DNA of 25,410 nucleotides from UHGV virus genome UHGV-0121369. One strand, given 5' to 3'. The stretch comes from a virus. Each line of letters starts with the position of its first letter. Position 1 is the first letter of the stretch. The notes under the pieces were generated by a model. The model had not been told where the DNA came from. It ran no database searches and saw only the letters and a list, made by a program, of their open reading frames with translations. Both the position numbers and the translations under genes were made by a program. Below are positions 50 through 8,838 of this stretch, piece by piece.

Positions 50-1243
50 ATGATCACCGACACAAAGCTCAGGAAGGCGCTCGGCAAGAAAAGAGATGAT
101 ATCGAGATTATTTCTGATTCGCACGGGCTCAACGCCAGAATCAGCCAGGCCGGAAAAATATCATTTTTCTATCGGTATCGCTGGGCCGGTAAAGCGGTAA
201 AACTCAATGTTGGTGATTATCCTGCAATGAGTATCACCCAGGCAAGAGAGCGTCGCCAACAATTCAGAAACTGGTTAACTGAGGGACTGGATCCGCGAGA
301 GCAGGTGAAGCTGGATAAGCAGACCCGACAGGAAGCGATGTCCGTTGCCGAAGCGTTCAATTACTGGATTGAAAGGCACTGTATCGCTAACGGGCTAGTT
401 AAAGTCGATTACTATCGCCAGGTGTTTGAGAAACATATCGCCGAACCGATGAAGAATGTCAAAGTCGATAACACAGCGAAAATGCACTGGATCAACGTCT
501 TCGATTCTATAGAAAGCAGGGTGATGGCTCATTACATGCTTTCGCTGTGCAAACGGGCGTTTAGGTTCTGCGTTAACAGAAGTGTGATCGCCTCAAACCC
601 ACTCGAGGGATTACTGCCATCTGATGTCGGGCAAAAGCCTAAAAAGAGAACTCGCAGGATGGACGATGACGATCTGCGCAAAATCTATCAGTGGTTGAAA
701 AGCCATATGTCGATAGAGTCCGTTTTCCTGGTGAAATTTATTATGCTTACCGGATGCCGTACGGCTGAGATTCGACTTAGTGAGAGATCATGGTTTCGAT
801 TGGATGATAATGAGTGGGTCGTGCCTGCGGGCAGTTATAAAACTCGGGTACATATTAGAAGGGGACTCTCAGACGCCGCCGTTAACCTGGTCAGAAATCA
901 CCTCAAGAAAATAAACACCAATCACCTGGTGACTTCACAACGTAAAATTGATGGCGGGATCAAAGATTCGCCCGTTCATTCACCTGTGGCATCCAATTAC
1001 GCCCGTTCTATTTGGAATGGAACAGGTATGGCAGAGTGGTCGCTTCATGATATGAGGCGGACGATAGCCACAAATCTCTCTGAGTTAGGTTGCCCGCCGC
1101 ACGTAATTGAAAAGCTGCTCGGGCATCAGATGGTGGGGGTTATGGCGCATTACAACCTTCATGACTATATCGATGATCAGAAACACTGGCTCCGCGTTTG
1201 GCAGAGCCATCTTGAAGAGATCATCGGAGAGCCCTTCAGTTAA
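50..1243 (+). CDS. int: P4-type tyrosine integrase
   Basis: N-terminal arm-binding-like region ([10 protein letters not shown]..., [31 protein letters not shown]) and C-terminal catalytic region ([29 protein letters not shown]). The ORF frame is open from 5 (GTG); ATG at 35 or 50 is the more likely start; no clear SD. Confidence 0.85.
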
Positions 1244-1482
1244 TTTATCTTCTTTTTATCCTCCCACTCTTTGATTGACTCAGAGCGCCAGCGGTTAGGG
1301 TTGCCGGGCCAGTCAGGGGGTGGGAACGGGCATACGAAGCCCCGAGGCATTGTGTCTGCACTTTGCCATGACCAAAGGGTTTTGCGTGAAATTTTGTAGC
1401 GACTGGTCAGGTCTGACGTTACCAAAATATCATCCATAGCTCTCTCCAGTTGCCCGTTCGGGCCATTCAAAATCTTTTTCAA
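1240..1482 (-). CDS. xis: Excisionase-like small DNA-binding protein (Xis/AlpA-type)
   Basis: 80 aa; [21 protein letters not shown] resembles the excisionase/AlpA helix-turn-helix, with a Trp-rich tail; 3' end overlaps the int stop; start overlaps the next gene stop (coupled). Confidence 0.55.
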
Positions 1483-1724
1483 CCAACCTGCCCGGGCAGG
1501 GAGCGGAGACGGCGCATGCCGGTCATCGCTGTGGCCACGTAGCTCGCCTTTCGGTTCACCACCTCCACCCAGACTTTCACGCCTTCAACCTTCACCGTAT
1601 AAGTCTCTTTCATCTTGCTTCGCCCATAGTCGCCATATGTTTGCAAGTGAGCCGCCAGCGCAACATCGCAAGCGCGGCGACCAATAGGTGATTGCTTACT
1701 GCGATTAATCAGCTTCATCATCAC
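1479..1724 (-). CDS. Hypothetical phage protein
   Basis: 81-aa ORF in the early-left operon, 4-nt overlap with the xis start; no recognisable motif. Confidence 0.45.
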   Translation of the reverse strand: MMMKLINRSKQSPIGRRACDVALAAHLQTYGDYGRSKMKETYTVKVEGVKVWVEVVNRKASYVATAMTGMRRLRSLPGQVG

Positions 1725-2507: not shown

Positions 2508-3421
2508 GCTGCCGCCTTCTGTCTGAGGAACCCGAGAGCCTTAACACCTTCCGGCTCTGTTAGGTCGGCAGGCTGCGTGATAGGGCGTTTGAAAATGCGT
2601 GAGCAGAGAGGGAGAAGATCGGCGTCCCATGTCTTATCCAGAGAAATGAGCAGGTCGTTAATCTCTTTCTGCGTGGTTTCGCTAAGCGGCGTTATATCTC
2701 GCTCTGGCTGCCGTTCTGCAGCAAAGTTGATACCTTCTTCACCCTCGGTGTTAACGTGGTCGATAGCGGCATCCAGGCGTTCACGGCGCGGCCAGTATTT
2801 TGCTGCCTGCTTCACGACCGTCTTGAGGATCATCTGCTCTTCATCTGTTACCCATGGGCACTTCTTACTGTTGTCAGATTTGTACTTCTTCCATGCTTCA
2901 GACCGGTCACGGATGGAGTGGATGGCATCGATGCGCATCGTATGGGTGAGGTAATCACCATCGTCAGTTTTTACCGTTACATACGCGCCTACGATGTCCC
3001 CGCGCTGCTCTTCAGTATCGAAGTCGTTGTAGATGTGGATCGGCGGCTTATCGAGCCCCTCGCGGCGGAACTGGTCGTTTCTGCGAACAATTGCCGACTG
3101 ACACCACTTAATGGCGCCAGACTGCTGCGCGATGTGCATCAGGCCCATGTAACTGATGTCGAGGCAAATAGCCCCTTTACGCGGAACCAGGTAAGCCAGC
3201 TTCTGAGCTGGGTTTAGCGAAATACCGATAGCCGCAACGTTGATGATTGCGTTCTGCGTGCTGGTCTGGTTCTGGAATGCAACTTTGGCGAGATAGTCGT
3301 TGTTCTGAAATAACTGGATGGCGAACTGGCTTTCTTTCGCCCACACCATCCGCTCGTCAGTGGCCGCCTTAATGAAAAGCGGCTCCTGTTGTTTGACGAA
3401 ATCAACAAGGGTTAAGCTCAT
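2504..3421 (-). CDS. Single-strand annealing protein, RecT-family core with lambda-Bet-like C-terminal tail
   Basis: 305 aa. N-terminal about 230 aa has RecT-family motifs ([64 protein letters not shown]). C-terminal about 75 aa ([44 protein letters not shown]...[14 protein letters not shown]) closely matches the lambda Bet C-terminus as recalled. SD aaggaggga before the ATG. Confidence 0.85.
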
Positions 3422-3430
3422 AGTCCCTCC

Positions 3431-3712
3431 TTAAAATGGGCAGGTTGGATGAAGGCGATCCCACTCTTCTTCGGCGCGGTCGTAACAGATTCGTGTGACA
3501 TAGTCGTTATAGGCTTCCTCTGCCTTTTCACCGACTAGTGCCATTTGCGCTTCTTTTGGAAGAAACAGGCTACTCATTTGCAGAGCATATTTCGGGAACA
3601 TGGCGATCAGTTCTTTCGCTCGGTCGTCGATCCACTTCTCTTTCTCGTCGGTGAGTTGCTGTTCAACCCAGCGCCGATCTTCGATGCGGTCGTAAGTGAG
3701 GAATGCGTTCAT
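3431..3712 (-). CDS. Hypothetical phage protein
   Basis: 93-aa acidic ORF immediately upstream of the annealase in the same operon; no recognised family (not lambda Gam by eye). Confidence 0.5.
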   Translation of the reverse strand: MNAFLTYDRIEDRRWVEQQLTDEKEKWIDDRAKELIAMFPKYALQMSSLFLPKEAQMALVGEKAEEAYNDYVTRICYDRAEEEWDRLHPTCPF

Positions 3713-5246: not shown

Positions 5247-5482
5247 GATTCCTCCCGGGCGCGGAGCATTGCGTCAGCTATCTGGTATGCTTCGGTTGCC
5301 GTGCGGTCATCGCTACACAACCAGTCAGGATTAGCTAGTCGACCCTGCATAGCCTTAGCCGCGAAGTAATCGCGCAGCGTCATGCCGCCTGAGCTGACTT
5401 CAAAACCATGTAAGTGACCAACTTCGTCGCGCTCCACGATAGAATCACACGGGAAAGCGCGCCCTCCAGTTTTGTTGCTCAT
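5243..5482 (-). CDS. Hypothetical small phage protein
   Basis: 79-aa ORF in the early-left operon; no recognised motif. Confidence 0.45.
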   Translation of the reverse strand: MSNKTGGRAFPCDSIVERDEVGHLHGFEVSSGGMTLRDYFAAKAMQGRLANPDWLCSDDRTATEAYQIADAMLRAREES

Positions 5483-5610
5483 AAATCCTCTTGGCCTTAT
5501 CGCGGCGAACGGAACGGTTAATACAAGACTTCAACGCATTTATTCAGTGTTTCAATGGGCGGTGGATGGCCGCCGGTTGTCATAACTTGAGCCACTCGTA
5601 AATGACTCCA

Positions 5611-5638
5611 GGTATGAAAAAGCCGCTGGTTAGGCGGC
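5611..5638 (-). terminator. Intrinsic terminator-like hairpin immediately after the first early-left gene (tL1-like position)
   Basis: On the minus strand: stem AGCCGCC/GCGGCT followed by UUUUU, starting at the stop codon of the 5638..5934 ORF. Confidence 0.45.
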
Positions 5639-5934
5639 TATTGAGGTTCGCGCGGCTTGTGGTCGAATCGGTGCCACCCGTCAGTTAATTCAAATGGAGC
5701 ATAACTTTCCCGGCGCTCAGCGAACCCAAGCTCAACAGACAGAGCGTGCAGCTCATGCCGACGCTTAATCTGTTCCATCGCAATCCAGTCAGCATCGGCA
5801 TTGCGCTTTTGAGCTTGCTTCGGCGACAGGTCTAAACTGTTTATTTCACTTAGTTTCTGCTGACGCTTGATGTCCTGTTTCATATTGCGAAGCGCATTTA
5901 TCATTGAGTCGATGCGCTTGATGTCGTCGATCAT
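5638..5934 (-). CDS. Hypothetical protein, first gene of the early-left operon (occupies the N position but is not N-like by eye)
   Basis: 98 aa, SD gagggtaagggg before ATG; no N-terminal arginine-rich motif of N-family antiterminators; followed by a terminator-like hairpin. Confidence 0.55.
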   Translation of the reverse strand: MIDDIKRIDSMINALRNMKQDIKRQQKLSEINSLDLSPKQAQKRNADADWIAMEQIKRRHELHALSVELGFAERRESYAPFELTDGWHRFDHKPREPQ

Positions 5935-6137
5935 CCCCTTACCCTCTATCGTTACCCGCTGATGCGGGAGAAATGCTTTGGTGGTGAAGGCCGGACGTTA
6001 CCCCGGCGATGTGTTCCGGTCCGCTCGTTCGCGCTTCCGTGGGCCACCTTGCTACCCAACCCCGTGATTCAGTGTGTACGGTTCGCCACTTTGCGTGTCA
6101 CCGATTTCCCACGCCGCTTCACCCCAAAGCACTTCGC

Positions 6138-6240
6138 CACAACGAAAAGAGCACTACCGCGTTTTGCCATTCCATCCTGGCTTTTGGTACTGCAATGGCT
6201 GCGAGATTATTTTTTGCATGCCAGCGCTCTTTTCGTTGTG
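6138..6240. repeat. 15-bp perfect inverted repeat (CACAACGAAAAGAGC ... GCTCTTTTCGTTGTG) separated by about 75 bp inside the ORF-free early-left leader
   Basis: Read directly from the sequence; predicts a long-range RNA stem in the leftward transcript. Confidence 0.6.
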
Positions 6241-6590
6241 AGCCGTCTCTCCGGCTGTCACCCTTGGCGTTTCATCCAGTTGCAGGCCGTAGCCACTTAC
6301 CAGACGGACGCCACTCGAACTTCGTGTTGCGGGTTACACCTGTACTACGCGTCGAGTCCGCGCCCCGCAGTTAGCCTCTCATACGGGGAAAGCTGTGTTA
6401 TTGGCAGTAGGTTGCCAGCCGGGCAGCTAAGATTTGTTCATTAAGCGCCAACTCCCTGCCAGTGTTGCCCGTTCTCACGCCGTTATCGCTCTCGCGCGGG
6501 GATACTCTCTCACCGACCGGATCGCACACGGTGATACAGCACGTTTTCGTGTAGGGGTCTTAACAGGTCATTGACGCTGTAAATCTGCAT

Positions 6591-6622
6591 GTTGTTAAAA
6601 AGCAGGCGACTTACTGTCCGCC
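6591..6622 (-). terminator. Hairpin plus U-run about 40-60 nt downstream of the predicted pL start (attenuator-like)
   Basis: Minus strand reads GGCGGAC-agtaa-GTCGCC then UGCUUUUUAACAAC. Confidence 0.35.
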
Positions 6623-6662
6623 GCTGGCTAACTTCGCTCAGCTGTCGATGTTTCGTTTCGAT

Positions 6663-6711
6663 GAGCTGATTATTAACTAATGGTTATTTTCAGTCAATAA
6701 CCATTGGTTAA
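6663..6711 (-). promoter_or_regulatory. Predicted early-left promoter pL with two operator-like palindromes (oL)
   Basis: Minus strand: TTGACT - 17 nt - AATAAT. Overlapping inverted repeats TTAAC-N5-GTTA(T) (about 6673-6687) and TAAC-N5-GTTAA (about 6698-6711) match the palindrome type seen between cI and cro. Confidence 0.5.
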
Positions 6712-6815
6712 TTATTTTGCCATTGGTTATTAAGGTTATGATTTATTGGTTAATTTAGTTCTGTTATGGATTTGTGCAGTACGTGCTATGCTGCAAAAAA
6801 CATCAGGAGGTAGCT

Positions 6816-7034
6816 ATGGAACGAGATGAACGTGCAGATGAACGAATGGCCTTCATGGCTGGAGAGGTTGGGTGCGTAGTGTTCGAGCTGGTTTATAACG
6901 GAATTGAAATCAATAAGGACAACATTGTGGGATTTCTGGAAGGGAAGCGCAAAGCCGTAGGAAACGTGATCCATAAGGGGATGCTACGGGATGCAGCTGA
7001 GATAGTCAGGAAGGGTAGTAAAGCTGTGAAGTAG
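6816..7034 (+). CDS. Small basic protein of unknown function (72 aa), convergent with the cI-linked accessory gene
   Basis: Strong SD caggaggt 6 nt before ATG at 6816 (track ORF begins at an upstream GTG, 6774); MERDERADERMAFMAGEVGCVVFELVYNGIEINKDNIVGFLEGKRKAVGNVIHKGMLRDAAEIVRKGSKAVK. Confidence 0.5.
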   Translation: MERDERADERMAFMAGEVGCVVFELVYNGIEINKDNIVGFLEGKRKAVGNVIHKGMLRDAAEIVRKGSKAVK

Positions 7035-7036
7035 GC

Positions 7037-7066
7037 ACAAAAAACCCGGCGCGGTGGCCGGTTGTT
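7037..7066 (-). terminator. Rho-independent terminator (strong on minus strand, weak on plus) between convergent genes
   Basis: AAAAAA-CCGGC-gcggtg-GCCGG-TTGTT; on the minus strand the GC stem is followed by UUUUUUG, directly after the stop of the 289-aa gene. Confidence 0.6.
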
Positions 7067-7934
7067 AAAGCTCAATATCAACTATGAAAAGTTTACTAAT
7101 AGCCCCTTTTCTAACTGCTGCTTTGGCAGTTACTTTTACCGCTGACTCATGACTTAGACCCGTTGACAGAAAACGACTAAGTGAAATGAGATACGGGTTG
7201 TCTGCCTTTGAAGCAGATGGATCGCTTATTTGTGCTGAGATGCGCTTATCTGAATCATCACCTTCTATAATGACTTTAGCGGTCATTCGGTGAGCGTCGA
7301 ATTCAGTAAGGAAGATTCGATACTCCCTTAAGCCAAGAACTTCGTCGTCGTCCAACTGGTCTATTACTGCTTTATCTTGCTCATCAATTACAGCAGGCTT
7401 GAAACCATTCCCCGGTGTGACGCTTATCTTATTACAGGTGGTACCGATGGGGGAAACTGCCTGTCTAACTGATGGGCGTAACTCACTAGCCATCTTGTCA
7501 ATCACTGAGATTAGACCTGAGATGGTATCTTTATCTTTATTTCCGAGGGCCTCAATTGCCTTCTCAAGTGCTTCTTTTAGGTATTTCATTTCCTCTTTCT
7601 TCTGCGAGTTTTTAGCGAAGATATAAGGCACTAATGCGCCAAGTATAGCCCCCGCAGACCCTGAGAACAATTGAGACTGACTGATAAAATTCATGATAGT
7701 ATCAAGAGAAAAACAATTGGCCCTAGCTTCGGTAGCGTAAATTTTAACCTCTTGAGTTGAGGTGCTTCGCGAGTACTTTTGGGTTAATGCGAAGGTTCCA
7801 GCTGTAGCTAATATCTTCGAAAATCCCTTTAGCGATTCACCGAGCGAAGAAAGTTCAATCTCATGCTTTTCAGCATCCAAACCGTCATATCTAAGTGAAA
7901 AATTAACATCGTGTAAGCCAGTGTTTTCCATCAA
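7065..7934 (-). CDS. Unknown 289-aa protein in the cI-adjacent slot; candidate lysogen-expressed exclusion/defence protein
   Basis: Starts 43 bp downstream of the cI stop on the same strand with no intervening terminator; visibly AT-rich relative to neighbours; one hydrophobic stretch ([18 protein letters not shown]); does not match RexA/RexB as I recall them; function is inference from position. Confidence 0.65.
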
Positions 7935-7977: not shown

Positions 7978-8754
7978 CTACAGCAATACCGAGTACCAGA
8001 AGAGACGGCCAATTATCTCGACATCATCAATATCAGCCTCTTCGTCTGGGTAGGAGTCGTTGTTGTAACTGCGGATGATCAGCTTCCCACCTGGCTTACG
8101 ATACAGCTGTTTAATGCGCTTGAGTTGACCATTCCCGCCATCTGTCTGACCAATGGCATACAGTTTCCCATCAACTATGCGTTTGTTGTTCGTATCGACG
8201 GCTACAGTCGTACCATCCGGTATCACAGGTTCCATGCTGTCGCCAGTAGCAGGGAAACACAGGATGCCAGACCCATCTGTGTTAGCTCCAACGCGGCGGA
8301 GGGTTGCCTTTGAGAACCTGAGCTTAAAACCATTGTGATCTTCGCTGTGTACGCGTCCATCGCCACACGCAAATTCAATATCCTTAAGAAACGGCACTTC
8401 AACCTCGTCAGCAGGAAGCGGTGTGTTTTTATCCCAGGCGTCAACAGTTCCCCATTCAGATTCTGGAGGGATAGATGACTCCCTACGCAGTTCAGGTTCG
8501 GGATCATTCCTTCCGTATTCAAGCCACTCAGGCCGTACCCCAAGCCAGCGGCTAAGGGCAAGGATATTGGTTTGGTCTGGTATCGCTGATGCGTTAAGCC
8601 ATTTCCAGATCCCGGGCTCAGATACAGTAATTCCTTGGGACTTCATAGCCTCTCTGATCCTACCAGCCTGCCCACGACCACCAACGCCAGCATCAAGCAA
8701 TGCAGCGCGAAGTCTTTTCGAGAATTCTTCTTTTAAATCGTCTTTTTTAACCAT
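7978..8754 (-). CDS. cI: CI-like prophage repressor (HTH plus S24 LexA-type peptidase domain)
   Basis: 258 aa; N-terminal HTH region; C-terminal S24 motifs (FPATGDSMEP with the Ser, ...LKRIKQL with the Lys); no SD, and a GATAAT hexamer sits 6 nt upstream of the ATG, consistent with a leaderless pRM-type transcript. Confidence 0.88.
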   Translation of the reverse strand: MVKKDDLKEEFSKRLRAALLDAGVGGRGQAGRIREAMKSQGITVSEPGIWKWLNASAIPDQTNILALSRWLGVRPEWLEYGRNDPEPELRRESSIPPESEWGTVDAWDKNTPLPADEVEVPFLKDIEFACGDGRVHSEDHNGFKLRFSKATLRRVGANTDGSGILCFPATGDSMEPVIPDGTTVAVDTNNKRIVDGKLYAIGQTDGGNGQLKRIKQLYRKPGGKLIIRSYNNDSYPDEEADIDDVEIIGRLFWYSVLL

Positions 8755-8838
8755 TCGTTAATTATCAATTAGAGTTGACATAACTGTCAGTTAAGATATA
8801 ACCTTAACTCGTAGTTAATATAGTTAACGGAAAACACT
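8755..8838. promoter_or_regulatory. Immunity switch: divergent pR/pRM with three overlapping operator palindromes
   Basis: Plus strand: TTGACA (8775-8780) then TATAAC-like -10. Palindromes TAAC-tgtca-GTTA (8781-8793), TTAAC-tcgta-GTTAA (8804-8818), GTTAA-tatag-TTAAC (8814-8828). Confidence 0.6.

What the first reader, a model, noticed from the sequence alone, without database searches (positions are those of the whole stretch)
5935..6711. Roughly 700-bp ORF-free, GC-rich structured leader between the predicted pL and the first early-left gene; no N-like gene
Seen in sequence: a good leftward promoter (TTGACT-17-AATAAT) flanked by operator-like palindromes of the same TTAAC-N5-GTTAA type as between cI and cro lies at about 6663-6711. 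From there to the first minus-strand ORF (ATG 5934) there is no ORF of 60 aa or more on the transcribed strand, which is unusual for a tightly packed phage. The stretch is GC-rich and holds a 15-bp perfect inverted repeat (6138-6152 / 6226-6240, about 75 bp apart), several shorter repeats (TTCGCCAC twice), an rrn-boxA-like UGCUCUUUU on the transcript, and a hairpin plus U-run just downstream of the predicted start (6591-6622). The first gene (98 aa) is not N-like and is followed by a terminator-like hairpin. Inference: the leader may encode a structured RNA, for example a cis-acting antitermination element (analogous in role, not sequence, to HK022 put RNAs), an attenuator, or a novel phage ncRNA; a decayed remnant of an N region is the alternative.
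Basis: partly seen in the sequence, partly recalled or inferred. Interest (0 to 1): 0.65.

Follow-up and report, generated by a model that had tools for sequence, protein, structure and literature searches.

The report
Mosaic structured leader of phi80-type N
The gene-free stretch is the untranslated leader of a phi80-like prophage's early-left operon, whose first gene is in fact phi80's N antiterminator, and it has been enlarged by a conserved two-hairpin RNA module that recurs in about a hundred other phage genomes and is in no RNA family database.

Summary
The sequence observations hold: pL promoter, shared operators, no ORF of 60 aa or more on the transcribed strand, high GC, the 15-bp inverted repeat. 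The headline "no N-like gene" is wrong. The 98-aa first gene is phi80 N (about 99% nucleotide identity). The promoter-proximal 220 nt is phi80's annotated nutL region.

Relative to phi80, about 150 nt of leader is replaced by about 470 nt. Its core (6256-6138, minus strand) is a short hairpin P1 abutting a long hairpin P2; the 15-bp repeat forms P2's base. This module occurs in about 95 other phage loci, mostly pL leaders without a recognised N, with strand-specific covariation (95.5% of cells paired against 52% or less in slid controls). Divergent copies form tandem arrays in unrelated phages (Shigella DS8, Klebsiella SopranoGao) or abut tRNA genes. Rfam has no match, and homology to HK022/HK639 put RNA could not be shown.

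A second structured domain (6137-5970), closed by a 19-bp stem, sits before the N ribosome-binding site, as in lambda's N leader.

Best reading: N/nutL does the antitermination. The extra modules are RNase III-type processing or stability cassettes; this step is inferred, not shown.

The parts
6667..6763 (.). OL operator cluster (TTAAC..GTTAA palindromes) around pL; heteroimmune relative to phi80
   Evidence: Inverted and direct repeats I1, I2, I5, I8, D3 and D5 are shared with the cI-cro interval at 8748-8820. This stretch does not align with phi80's operators.
6669..6697 (-). pL promoter: -35 TTGACT (6697-6692), 17-nt spacer, -10 AATAAT (6674-6669); inferred start near 6662-6663
   Evidence: The promoter scan scores it 10 of 12. 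Identity to the phi80 leader begins at 6663, in the same register as phi80's annotated pL -10.
6445..6663 (-). Leader module A: the phi80 nutL region. It holds hairpin 6622-6605, boxA UGCUUUUUAACAA 6604-6592, and the 'nutL core' hairpin CACG-AAAA-CGUG 6551-6540.
   Evidence: It is about 98-99% identical to phi80. Phi80 features 'nutL boxA' and 'nutL core' (JX871397) map onto it. The same module is present in HK225, 30EVA1 and Stx phages. Folding is not above shuffles, z = -0.18.
6266..6444 (-). Leader module B: about 180 nt of unknown role, not more structured than shuffles
   Evidence: It is absent from phi80 and 30EVA1. It is found only in window-type loci. z = -0.04.
6241..6256 (-). Module C, hairpin P1: AGCCG-GAGAGA-CGGCU
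   Evidence: At least 7 different complementary 5-bp stem sequences occur across loci. 94.9% of cells are paired, and 3 of 5 pairs change on both sides.
6138..6240 (-). Module C, long hairpin P2. Inside are a small hairpin (6218-6200) and P3 (6199-6194 with 6171-6166, loop holding CCAGGAUGG).
   Evidence: Covariance model R1 scores 136.6 bits on the minus strand against 23 bits antisense. Covariation was counted. Fold z = -4.48. About 95 homologous loci were found.
5970..6137 (-). Leader module D: a domain closed by a 19-bp long-range stem (6135-6117 with 5989-5970) that encloses 4-5 small hairpins
   Evidence: The MFE and centroid structures agree on it, z = -2.32. It is shared with prophage 30EVA1, starting exactly at the end of P2. 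Five of 56 pairs are compensated and the closing stem is invariant.
5935..5969 (-). Hairpin CCCGC-AUCA-GCGGG (5968-5955) and the Shine-Dalgarno region before the N start codon
   Evidence: Identical in phi80. The last 50 nt or so recur in 113 E. coli genomes ahead of various first genes.
5638..5934 (-). Gene N of phi80 type (98 aa)
   Evidence: The best phage hits overlap features annotated 'N protein' and 'early transcription antiterminator protein N'. tblastn gives 100% identity to phi80 N. It matches PHROG 25091 (function unknown) and no Pfam family.
5612..5639 (-). tL1A intrinsic terminator directly after N
   Evidence: The terminator scan finds it at 5639-5621 plus a U run. It maps to phi80's annotated tL1A.

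Best explanation
The stretch is the roughly 728-nt untranslated leader of the pL-N transcript of a phi80-like prophage with a different immunity.

Transcription starts at about 6662 and first makes phi80's nutL region (hairpin, boxA, core hairpin). N, encoded by the first gene, together with host Nus factors, is what carries RNA polymerase through tL1 just after N, as annotated for phi80. No RNA substitute for N is needed.

The leader is unusually long because recombination replaced about 150 nt of the phi80 leader with about 470 nt. That replacement carries two autonomous RNA modules.

Module C (P1 plus P2) belongs to a widespread, undescribed family of phage early RNA cassettes. A short hairpin abuts a long hairpin whose base stem is 18-24 bp. 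The base stem is conserved in sequence; the interior is variable.

I infer that this base stem, about two helical turns, is a double-strand-specific cleavage site (RNase III type). Cleavage would leave P1 as a protective 3' hairpin on the upstream RNA. It would also release the interior as a discrete stable hairpin RNA and free what lies downstream (a first gene, a tRNA or the next cassette).

Module D, closed by a 19-bp stem directly before the N ribosome-binding site, is inferred to play the part of lambda's structured, RNase III-sensitive N leader, which tunes N translation.

Shown: the anatomy, the homologies, the covariation and the genomic contexts. Inferred: the cleavage, and any function of the released RNA.
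For: N, nutL and tL1 identity.
- establish these.
- The mosaic boundaries are at 6444/6445 and about 5974.

Module C is a real RNA.
- With 63 distinct sequences, 95.5% of cells are paired, against 30-52% in slid controls.
- 55 cells change on both sides, against 13.6 +/- 3.0 in shuffles; 0 of 500 shuffles reach this.
- Invariant G-U pairs, and a sense score of 137-154 bits against 15-26 bits antisense, make the structure strand-specific.

Cassette behaviour.
- The module has sharp boundaries and different flanks in different loci.
- Class A and the 'mini' class occupy the same slot upstream of the same rdgC-like gene in two Klebsiella phages.
- There are 2 tandem copies in DS8 and 4 in SopranoGao, each array behind its own promoter-like site.
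- tRNA-Arg(UCU) overlaps the 3' end of P2 by 3 nt in 7 loci, and tRNA-Ser lies 100 nt downstream in phi_KPN_H2.

Base stem length.
- The base stem is 18-24 bp in every class, while interiors range from 27 to about 150 nt.
- E. coli RNase III substrates typically show two helical turns, and internal loops or bulges restrict cleavage (PMC1540722).

Lambda precedent for module D.
- nutL lies about 200 nt upstream of N. [quoted passage not shown] 1997 and 2002).
Against: - No cleavage data exist, and RNase III sites cannot be predicted from sequence.
- The interior of class A is almost invariant across E. coli, Klebsiella and Pantoea. A mere cleavage signal does not explain this. It implies a function for the excised RNA, or a protein contact.
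- Sequence conservation of the base stem (CACAAC...GUUGUG, AGAGC/GCUCU) across very different phages is more than RNase III is known to need.
- In most class A members the stem has a C-U mismatch at position 7 (47 of 63 sequences).
- In most lambdoid loci the element sits in a pL leader with no recognised N. That position is where an antiterminator RNA would be.
- Phi80's nutL features are themselves labelled 'putative' in the record.
- Phi80 N has no Pfam family and no obvious arginine-rich motif.
Confidence: 0.45

Rival explanations
1. Module C is a put-like, cis-acting antiterminator RNA. The nascent two-hairpin RNA binds the polymerase that made it and makes it terminator-resistant. In the window it would be a second, N-independent antitermination device.
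For: - It sits in the pL leader, in the sense orientation, in about 90 lambdoid loci whose first early-left genes are not recognisable N proteins (RdgC-like, PHROG 15091, ParB-like).
- It has two adjacent stem-loops 0-1 nt apart, as in put (put anatomy from PMC9378689).
- HK639 places its annotated putL in a leader whose first 50 nt or so are the same as the phi80 and window leader.
- It shares CAGGAU(G)GAACGGCA with stem II of HK022 putL; 10 of 2000 shuffles score as well for the majority type.
Against: - Model R1 finds no put site in HK022 or HK639 at E of 10 or less with filters off.
- The local similarity is weaker for the window's own copy (71 of 2000 shuffles). It is absent against HK639 putL and HK022 putR.
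- That similarity lies in the interior, which other classes of the family replace entirely.
- No second copy was found in the part of the pR operon held for locus L003.
- The tandem arrays in DS8 and SopranoGao have no downstream genes to antiterminate. In DS8 the array is antisense to the tail genes.
- In the window, N and nutL are already present.
Confidence: 0.18
2. The module is, or carries, a stable trans-acting early RNA. It would work as a decoy or sponge for a host or phage protein (for example a defence nuclease, CsrA, Nus factors or a tRNA-directed enzyme) or as a base-pairing regulator. Its position in leaders serves only to get it made first.
For: - It is always downstream of sigma-70-like early promoters. 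It forms stand-alone promoter-to-terminator arrays in a T1-like phage and in a Lastavirus.
- The class A interior is almost invariant between genera, while P1 stems and flanks vary.
- GGA motifs sit in the P1 loop in most classes, and CAGGAUG sits in the P3 loop. CAGGAUG is the CsrB repeat consensus as I recall it; this was not tested.
- It is repeatedly adjacent to tRNA genes.
Against: - No complementary target for either conserved loop was found in the 25-kb window at 3 mismatches or fewer.
- No co-occurring protein gene was found.
- Interiors differ completely between classes, so no single ligand is implied.
- The boxA-like GCUCUUU matches only 7 of 11 positions of the consensus GYTCTTTAANA, and it is base-paired (sequence read directly).
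- This reading is compatible with the processing model rather than exclusive of it.
Confidence: 0.22
3. The 470-nt insert is junk: a recombination scar, a non-autonomous mobile element (MITE-like inverted repeats) or a decayed gene with no RNA-level function.
For: - The exact window arrangement is rare: 1 of 5426 complete E. coli genomes plus one viral contig.
- Module B has no excess structure and no homologues outside window-type loci.
- The conserved terminal inverted repeats with a variable interior look superficially MITE-like.
Against: - Orientation relative to the promoter is fixed in about 95 loci.
- G-U pairs and a roughly 110-bit gap between sense and antisense scores show selection on one RNA strand.
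- There is at most one copy per E. coli genome, and in every locus examined it lies in phage or prophage DNA.
- P1 lies outside the inverted repeat yet covaries.
- 1-nt indels and the absence of Pfam or PHROG hits for the overlapping ORFs argue against a gene remnant.
Confidence: 0.07

Closest known systems
Bacteriophage phi80 pL-nutL-N-tL1 region (GenBank M11919, X13065, JX871397)
   Same: - Gene N is identical at the protein level.
- The first 220 nt of leader are the same, including the annotated nutL boxA and core.
- The last 40 nt or so before the N start codon are the same.
- The tL1A terminator is the same.
- The gene order cI, 289-aa '40A'-type gene, OL/pL, N, kil is the same.
   Different: - The operators, and therefore the immunity, differ.
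- About 150 nt of the phi80 leader is replaced by about 470 nt (modules B, C and D). The leader is about 728 nt against about 410 nt in phi80.
Lambda N leader (nutL, structured RNase III-sensitive region, N)
   Same: - An ORF-free, structured RNA lies between nutL and the N ribosome-binding site.
- A long-range stem lies just upstream of the Shine-Dalgarno sequence.
- A terminator follows N (PMC5725501).
   Different: - There is no sequence similarity.
- The leader is about three times longer.
- The boxA is of the rrn type (UGCUUUUUAACAA) and is preceded by a hairpin.
- RNase III cleavage has not been shown here.
HK022 putL/putR and HK639 putL antiterminator RNAs
   Same: - The position is the same: the pL leader.
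- Two neighbouring stem-loops with irregular stems.
- Occurrence in lambdoid phages without N.
- HK639's leader starts with the same 50 nt as this one.
   Different: - The element is 120-130 nt against about 73 nt for put.
- P1 is a plain 5-bp hairpin, not put's stem I with its triplex.
- No significant model or sequence match was found.
- There are tandem and gene-less copies.
- Here it coexists with N and nutL.
T7 early-region RNase III processing signals (R1.1 type)
   Same: - Irregular hairpins of about two helical turns in phage early transcripts, between functional units.
- They leave a 3' hairpin on the upstream product (PMC1540722, plus general knowledge).
   Different: - A large variable or conserved interior, and an extra upstream hairpin P1.
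- Strong sequence conservation of the stem.
- No cleavage data.

Membership tests
N/nut antitermination leader (phi80 type) | An N gene is the first gene of the pL operon | tested here: met
   ORF 5934-5638 is 100% identical at the protein level to phi80 N. Three GenBank records annotate it as N.
N/nut antitermination leader (phi80 type) | A boxA element in the leader | tested here: met
   Window 6604-6592, UGCUUUUUAACAA, maps to phi80's annotated nutL boxA. It matches the gamma-proteobacterial consensus GYTCTTTAANA at 10 of 11 positions; the consensus is from PMC5725501.
N/nut antitermination leader (phi80 type) | A boxB-type hairpin bound by N | tested here: inconclusive
   The hairpin CACG-AAAA-CGUG (6551-6540) maps to phi80's 'nutL core', which the record labels putative. 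Its loop differs from phi80 (UAAA) and from 30EVA1 (AGAAA). Binding cannot be tested here.
N/nut antitermination leader (phi80 type) | A terminator downstream that N must overcome | tested here: met
   An intrinsic terminator lies at 5639-5621 plus a U run, matching phi80's tL1A.
put antiterminator RNA (HK022/HK639) | Sequence and structure homology to put (stem I and stem II) | tested here: not met
   Model R1 gives no hit on HK022 putL/putR or HK639 putL at E of 10 or less with filters off. Local alignment to putL is marginal (10 and 71 of 2000 shuffles). There is none to putR or HK639 putL. Rfam holds no put model to test against, since the HK022 locus gives 0 hits.
put antiterminator RNA (HK022/HK639) | Located in the early leader of a phage that lacks N | tested here: not met
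   The window has N and nutL. Most other loci have no recognised N. The feature is therefore met for the family at large but not here.
put antiterminator RNA (HK022/HK639) | Acts in cis on downstream genes by binding the RNA polymerase beta-prime zinc-binding domain | not testable with these tools
   Context argues against a general cis role: the DS8 and SopranoGao arrays have no downstream genes.
RNase III processing signal | A double helix of about two turns (about 20 bp) | tested here: met
   The P2 base stem is 19 bp in the window and 18-24 bp in all classes. The closing stem of module D is 19 bp. The criterion is taken from PMC1540722.
RNase III processing signal | No inhibitory base pairs in the proximal and distal boxes; actual cleavage | not tested
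   The cleavage site is unknown, so the boxes cannot be placed. This needs an enzyme assay or end mapping.
rrn-type boxA / Nus complex site (for the UGCUCUUUU in P2) | A single-stranded match to GYTCTTTAANA | tested here: not met
   GCUCUUUUCGU matches 7 of 11 positions. It lies inside the 19-bp stem (sequence, fold, consensus).
Any curated RNA family (Rfam 15) | A covariance-model match | tested here: not met
   There are 0 hits at gathering score in the window. Only chance-level miRNA-type hits appear at E of 10 or less in 5500-6900. The related loci give nothing. ARAGORN finds no tRNA or tmRNA.
Antisense immunity RNA of P4 CI / P1 c4 type | Loops complementary to target sites in the same operon | tested here: not met
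   The two conserved loops match only themselves in the window at 3 mismatches or fewer. There is no Rfam C4 hit.

The most novel reading that the evidence does not exclude
P1-P2 cassettes are a new class of phage early non-coding RNA. A conserved 'frame' (a hairpin plus a stem of about 20 bp) presents interchangeable interior RNAs, singly in early-operon leaders or as promoter-driven arrays, often next to tRNA genes. The RNAs would be excised and act in trans on a host or phage protein, for example a defence or takeover target, or they would modify the transcribing polymerase by a mechanism unrelated to put.
Probability: 0.25. Interest if true: 0.8.

Novelty: new variant of a known kind. Interest (0 to 1): 0.55.

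Why it matters
For this prophage the result is mostly clarifying. Early-left regulation is the known phi80 N/nutL scheme, not an N-less system. An ORF-free structured leader before N is what lambda-type phages normally have.

What is new is the module inside it. It is a well-supported, strand-specific RNA structure shared by about a hundred phage genomes of at least four unrelated types: lambdoid, T1-like, Lastavirus and the 60-kb Klebsiella phage phi_KPN_H2. It is absent from Rfam and from genome annotations. In two places it is even overprinted by spurious 'hypothetical protein' calls.

It occupies the very position where N-less lambdoid phages must solve early antitermination or RNA processing. 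It therefore offers a concrete, clonable candidate for experiments on how those phages control early transcription. It is also a case study in how RNA modules, like genes, are shuffled as cassettes between phages.

Tried and rejected
- **Rfam.** I scanned the window at gathering score and region 5500-6900 at E of 10 or less, and then the related loci. Nothing meaningful came up.
- **tRNA/tmRNA.** The scan of the window found none.
- **A 14-base pattern scan of viral contigs.** It was mostly chance hits and was filtered afterwards by BLAST. The later 23-base degenerate pattern was specific. In species-representative genomes it gave one true hit (Pantoea) and one chance hit (Asaia).
- **put homology.** I tested it with a covariance model and by shuffled local alignment. 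It is not established. King et al. 2011 on HK639 could not be read.
- **Coding hypotheses.** The plus-strand ORFs of 160 and 121 aa, and the minus-strand ORFs of 26-43 aa, have no Pfam or PHROG match. They are broken by 1-nt indels among homologues.
- **Antisense-target hypothesis.** No complementary site was found in the window.
- **MITE or transposon hypothesis.** I rejected it on fixed orientation, G-U pairs and copy number.
- **rrn-boxA reading of UGCUCUUUU.** I rejected it because the match is partial and base-paired.
- **A CsrA-binding reading of the GGA/CAGGAUG loops.** This rests only on memory of the CsrB repeat. It does not explain the conserved base stem, and I did not pursue it.
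- **A remembered RNase III sequence consensus.** I dropped it because PMC1540722 states that alignments found no positive consensus.
Full report
**Observation.** The region was read on both strands and all ORFs listed.
- The leftward promoter TTGACT-17-AATAAT at 6697-6669 is the only promoter-like site in 5400-7100.
- It lies inside a 20-nt inverted repeat (6669-6688/6696-6715). The arms of that repeat recur at the cI-cro interval (8748-8767, 8805-8820), so the TTAAC..GTTAA palindromes are plausibly the operators of this immunity.
- Between 6711 and the ATG at 5934 the longest minus-strand ORF is 43 aa.
- GC is 0.53-0.59 across 5900-6500, against 0.37-0.50 on either side.
- The 15-bp perfect inverted repeat, the UGCUCUUUU on the transcript, the hairpin plus U-run at 6622-6605 and the terminator-like hairpin at 5639-5621 are all present.

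**The first gene is N.** A similarity search of 5600-6800 against phage records returned phi80 as the best hit, at 98.7-99.2% identity.
- The 98-aa ORF lies under features named 'N protein', 'N gene (AA 1-98)' and 'early transcription antiterminator protein N'. tblastn gives 100% identity.
- The phi80 annotation and a pairwise alignment show that window 6663-6445 is phi80's promoter-proximal leader.
- The annotated nutL boxA maps to 6604-6596; the full motif UGCUUUUUAACAA runs to 6592. The annotated nutL core maps to 6551-6540. The terminator after the gene is phi80's tL1A.
- The operators do not align with phi80, so this is a heteroimmune relative.
- The neighbours fit this: an S24-peptidase repressor (7978-8754), a 289-aa DUF7946/DUF7947 gene in the place of phi80's 40A, and kil downstream of N.
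- N itself has no Pfam family and falls in a PHROG of unknown function. Its identification rests on the phi80 records, and on my recollection that M11919 is the 1985 characterisation of N, nutL and tL1.

**The leader is a mosaic.**
- Phi80 identity stops at 6445 and resumes about 40 nt before the start codon. In between, about 150 nt of phi80 is replaced by about 470 nt.
- Only one of 5426 complete E. coli genomes (UPEC85) and one viral contig (L113) carry the whole arrangement.
- Prophage 30EVA1 has the same module A, then a different middle. It then rejoins the window exactly at the end of the long hairpin and shares the 3' domain, ahead of a different first gene.
- I therefore divide the leader into A (6663-6445), B (6444-6266), C (6256-6138), D (6137-5970) and the hairpin/Shine-Dalgarno stretch (5969-5935).
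- Excess folding stability is confined to C (z = -4.48) and D (z = -2.32). A and B are indistinguishable from shuffles.

**Module C is a conserved RNA.** Searches with the 470-nt segment hit only its centre, at 86-93% identity.
- The hits were two E. coli phages, two Klebsiella phages and 22 further E. coli genomes.
- A 23-base degenerate pattern found 88 viral contigs. It also found one Pantoea genome among 100,044 species representatives, plus one chance hit.
- All copies fold alike. A 5-bp hairpin P1 sits 0-1 nt before a long hairpin P2. P2 has a 19-bp base, a small internal hairpin, and a distal hairpin P3.
- P1 occurs with at least seven different, fully complementary stem sequences.
- On a MAFFT alignment of 30 sequences, 93% of cells pair, against 56.5% or less in slid controls.
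- On a model-fitted alignment of 63 distinct sequences, 95.5% pair (slid controls 30-52%). There, 55 cells changed on both sides, against 13.6 +/- 3.0 in shuffles, and 0 of 500 shuffles reach the observed covariation score. That alignment leans towards the structure, and the sequences are related, so these are supporting figures, not probabilities.
- Invariant G-U pairs, and model scores of 125-154 bits in sense against 15-26 bits antisense, show that the selected strand is the pL transcript.
- One-nucleotide indels inside otherwise invariant stretches rule out coding on either strand.

**Context of module C.**
- In the typical locus a 219-aa repressor gene ends about 280 nt upstream. In phage 733R5 a pL-like promoter lies in that gap, so there the element begins about 180 nt into the transcript. 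The first gene starts 26-136 nt after it.
- Those first genes are RdgC-like, PHROG 15091 or ParB-like. None is a recognised N.
- Phi80 N follows the element only in the window, L113 and L149.
- Seven loci combine A, B and C with yet another first gene.
- In seven loci a tRNA-Arg(UCU) gene overlaps the last 3 nt of P2.

**The family is wider than class A.** The covariance model found weaker, same-strand copies near some primary copies.
- These copies keep P1 and the base stem, 5'-CACAAC(A)GRWAAGAGC ... GCUCUUWYCGUUGUG-3'. Compensatory changes in the base stem include CACAUC/GAUGUG, CACAAU/AUUGUG, GGUAA/UUACC and AUGUAUUG/CAAUGCGU. Their interiors are unrelated and range from 27 to about 150 nt.
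- A 'mini' class replaces class A at the same slot upstream of the same gene in a Klebsiella phage.
- The T1-like Shigella phage DS8 has two tandem copies in an 840-nt ORF-free island among tail genes. They are antisense to those genes, behind TTGACA-17-TAGATT and ending at a convergent terminator.
- Klebsiella phage SopranoGao has four tandem copies behind a promoter-like site (read by eye from the sequence) at the end of the record. Its first unit shares about 170 nt of upstream sequence with the lambdoid leaders.
- Phi_KPN_H2 has one copy 100 nt before a tRNA-Ser.
- Across all classes the base stem is 18-24 bp.

**Comparison with put.** HK639 carries an annotated 'putL-like antiterminator RNA', in a leader that starts with the same 50 nt as phi80 and the window. 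That made the put idea worth testing.
- HK022 putL was located and numbered against the cryo-EM paper.
- Model R1 does not detect putL, putR or HK639 putL at E of 10 or less with filters off.
- The one shared string, CAGGAU(G)GAACGGCA, reaches p of about 0.005 for the majority type and 0.035 for the window's copy. There is no excess similarity to putR or HK639 putL. That string also lies in the replaceable interior.
- Rfam has no put model, since the HK022 locus gives no hits. The Rfam negatives therefore say nothing about put.
- Together with the gene-less arrays, membership in the put family is not supported. A put-like mode of action remains possible for the leader copies.

**Mechanism.**
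- For the operon as a whole I take the phi80 scheme at face value: N with nutL overcomes tL1.
- For C and D the most economical reading of all contexts is a processing cassette. Those contexts are leader-gene junctions, tRNA junctions, tandem arrays, interchangeable interiors and a constant stem of about 20 bp.
- E. coli RNase III substrates typically have two helical turns, and bulges restrict cleavage (PMC1540722).
- In lambda, nutL lies about 200 nt upstream of N. The intervening RNA is highly structured, and RNase III modulates N's translational autorepression (PMC5725501).
- D has a 19-bp closing stem that ends 35 nt before the start codon. It shows five compensated pairs against 30EVA1 and fits that role.
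- The processing model does not explain the near-invariance of the class A interior, nor the sequence conservation of the stem. I therefore rate it at about 0.4. I keep a put-like role (about 0.18), a trans-acting decoy or regulator (about 0.22, not exclusive of processing) and junk (about 0.07) as rivals.

**Verdict.**
- The premise (no N) is wrong.
- The inference (a structured, functional leader RNA) is right for two of the four modules.
- The specific put analogy is unproven.
- The leader is a new variant of a known kind.
- The P1-P2 cassette family it contains appears to be undescribed and is the part worth following up.

Noticed in passing
L190 (Klebsiella phage SopranoGao MF612073) 2763-3487; L187 (Shigella phage DS8 MK759854) 2242-2606: Tandem arrays of 4 and 2 P1-P2 cassettes with unrelated interiors. 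Each array sits behind its own sigma-70-like promoter and has no downstream gene. In DS8 the array is antisense to the tail-gene cluster.
   Followed up: partly
L004 4101-4177, L130, L138, L145, L151, L152, L180; L189 3207-3294: In six of these seven loci a tRNA-Arg(UCU) gene starts within the last 3 nt of the element's long hairpin; in L145 it lies about 200 nt downstream. In phi_KPN_H2 a tRNA-Ser lies 100 nt downstream. SopranoGao's third cassette is followed by a tRNA-like D-arm sequence that ARAGORN does not call.
   Followed up: partly
L126 (HK639) 34374-34325, compared with window 6663-6615 and phi80: HK639 uses putL and has no N, yet it shares the first 50 nt or so of its pL transcript with phi80 and this window. 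After that point the leaders diverge, to putL in HK639 and to hairpin-boxA in phi80 and the window. The antitermination devices look like swappable modules behind a common leader start.
   Followed up: partly
window 7065-7934 (-): A 289-aa protein with DUF7946 and DUF7947 sits between the repressor gene and OL/pL, at the position of phi80 gene 40A. Lambdoid phages often carry exclusion or defence genes in this slot. Its function is unknown.
   Followed up: no
window 6816-7034 (+), hairpin 7046-7061: A 72-aa ORF (PHROG 3975, function unknown) reads rightward out of the OL region and ends at a GC-rich hairpin. It is an isolated small gene between pL and the 289-aa gene.
   Followed up: no
L185 (E. 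coli 30EVA1) 1211-1495 (-): The first early-left gene there is behind the same nutL-type module A and module D. It encodes a 94-aa protein with the arginine-rich stretch KERRRIARN, which resembles the RDRRRIARW of HK022 Nun. It may be an N or Nun analogue. It has no PHROG match.
   Followed up: no
L004 3553-4107 (-) (WP_162782382.1); window 5962-6444 (+): The GC-rich leader is overprinted by long antisense ORFs. In strain 2017C-4173W12 one of them is annotated as a hypothetical protein. They have no family match, span mosaic junctions, and are most likely spurious.
   Followed up: partly
L191 (Stx2a phage P13374) 2501-2661, and about 60 other Stx phage records: The boxA-to-end part of module A (window 6444-6604) recurs at 92-93% identity in Stx-converting phages. 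There it lies upstream of ant-like genes and a 224-aa gene annotated 'antitermination'. The phi80 'nutL' module therefore serves operons with different first genes.
   Followed up: no
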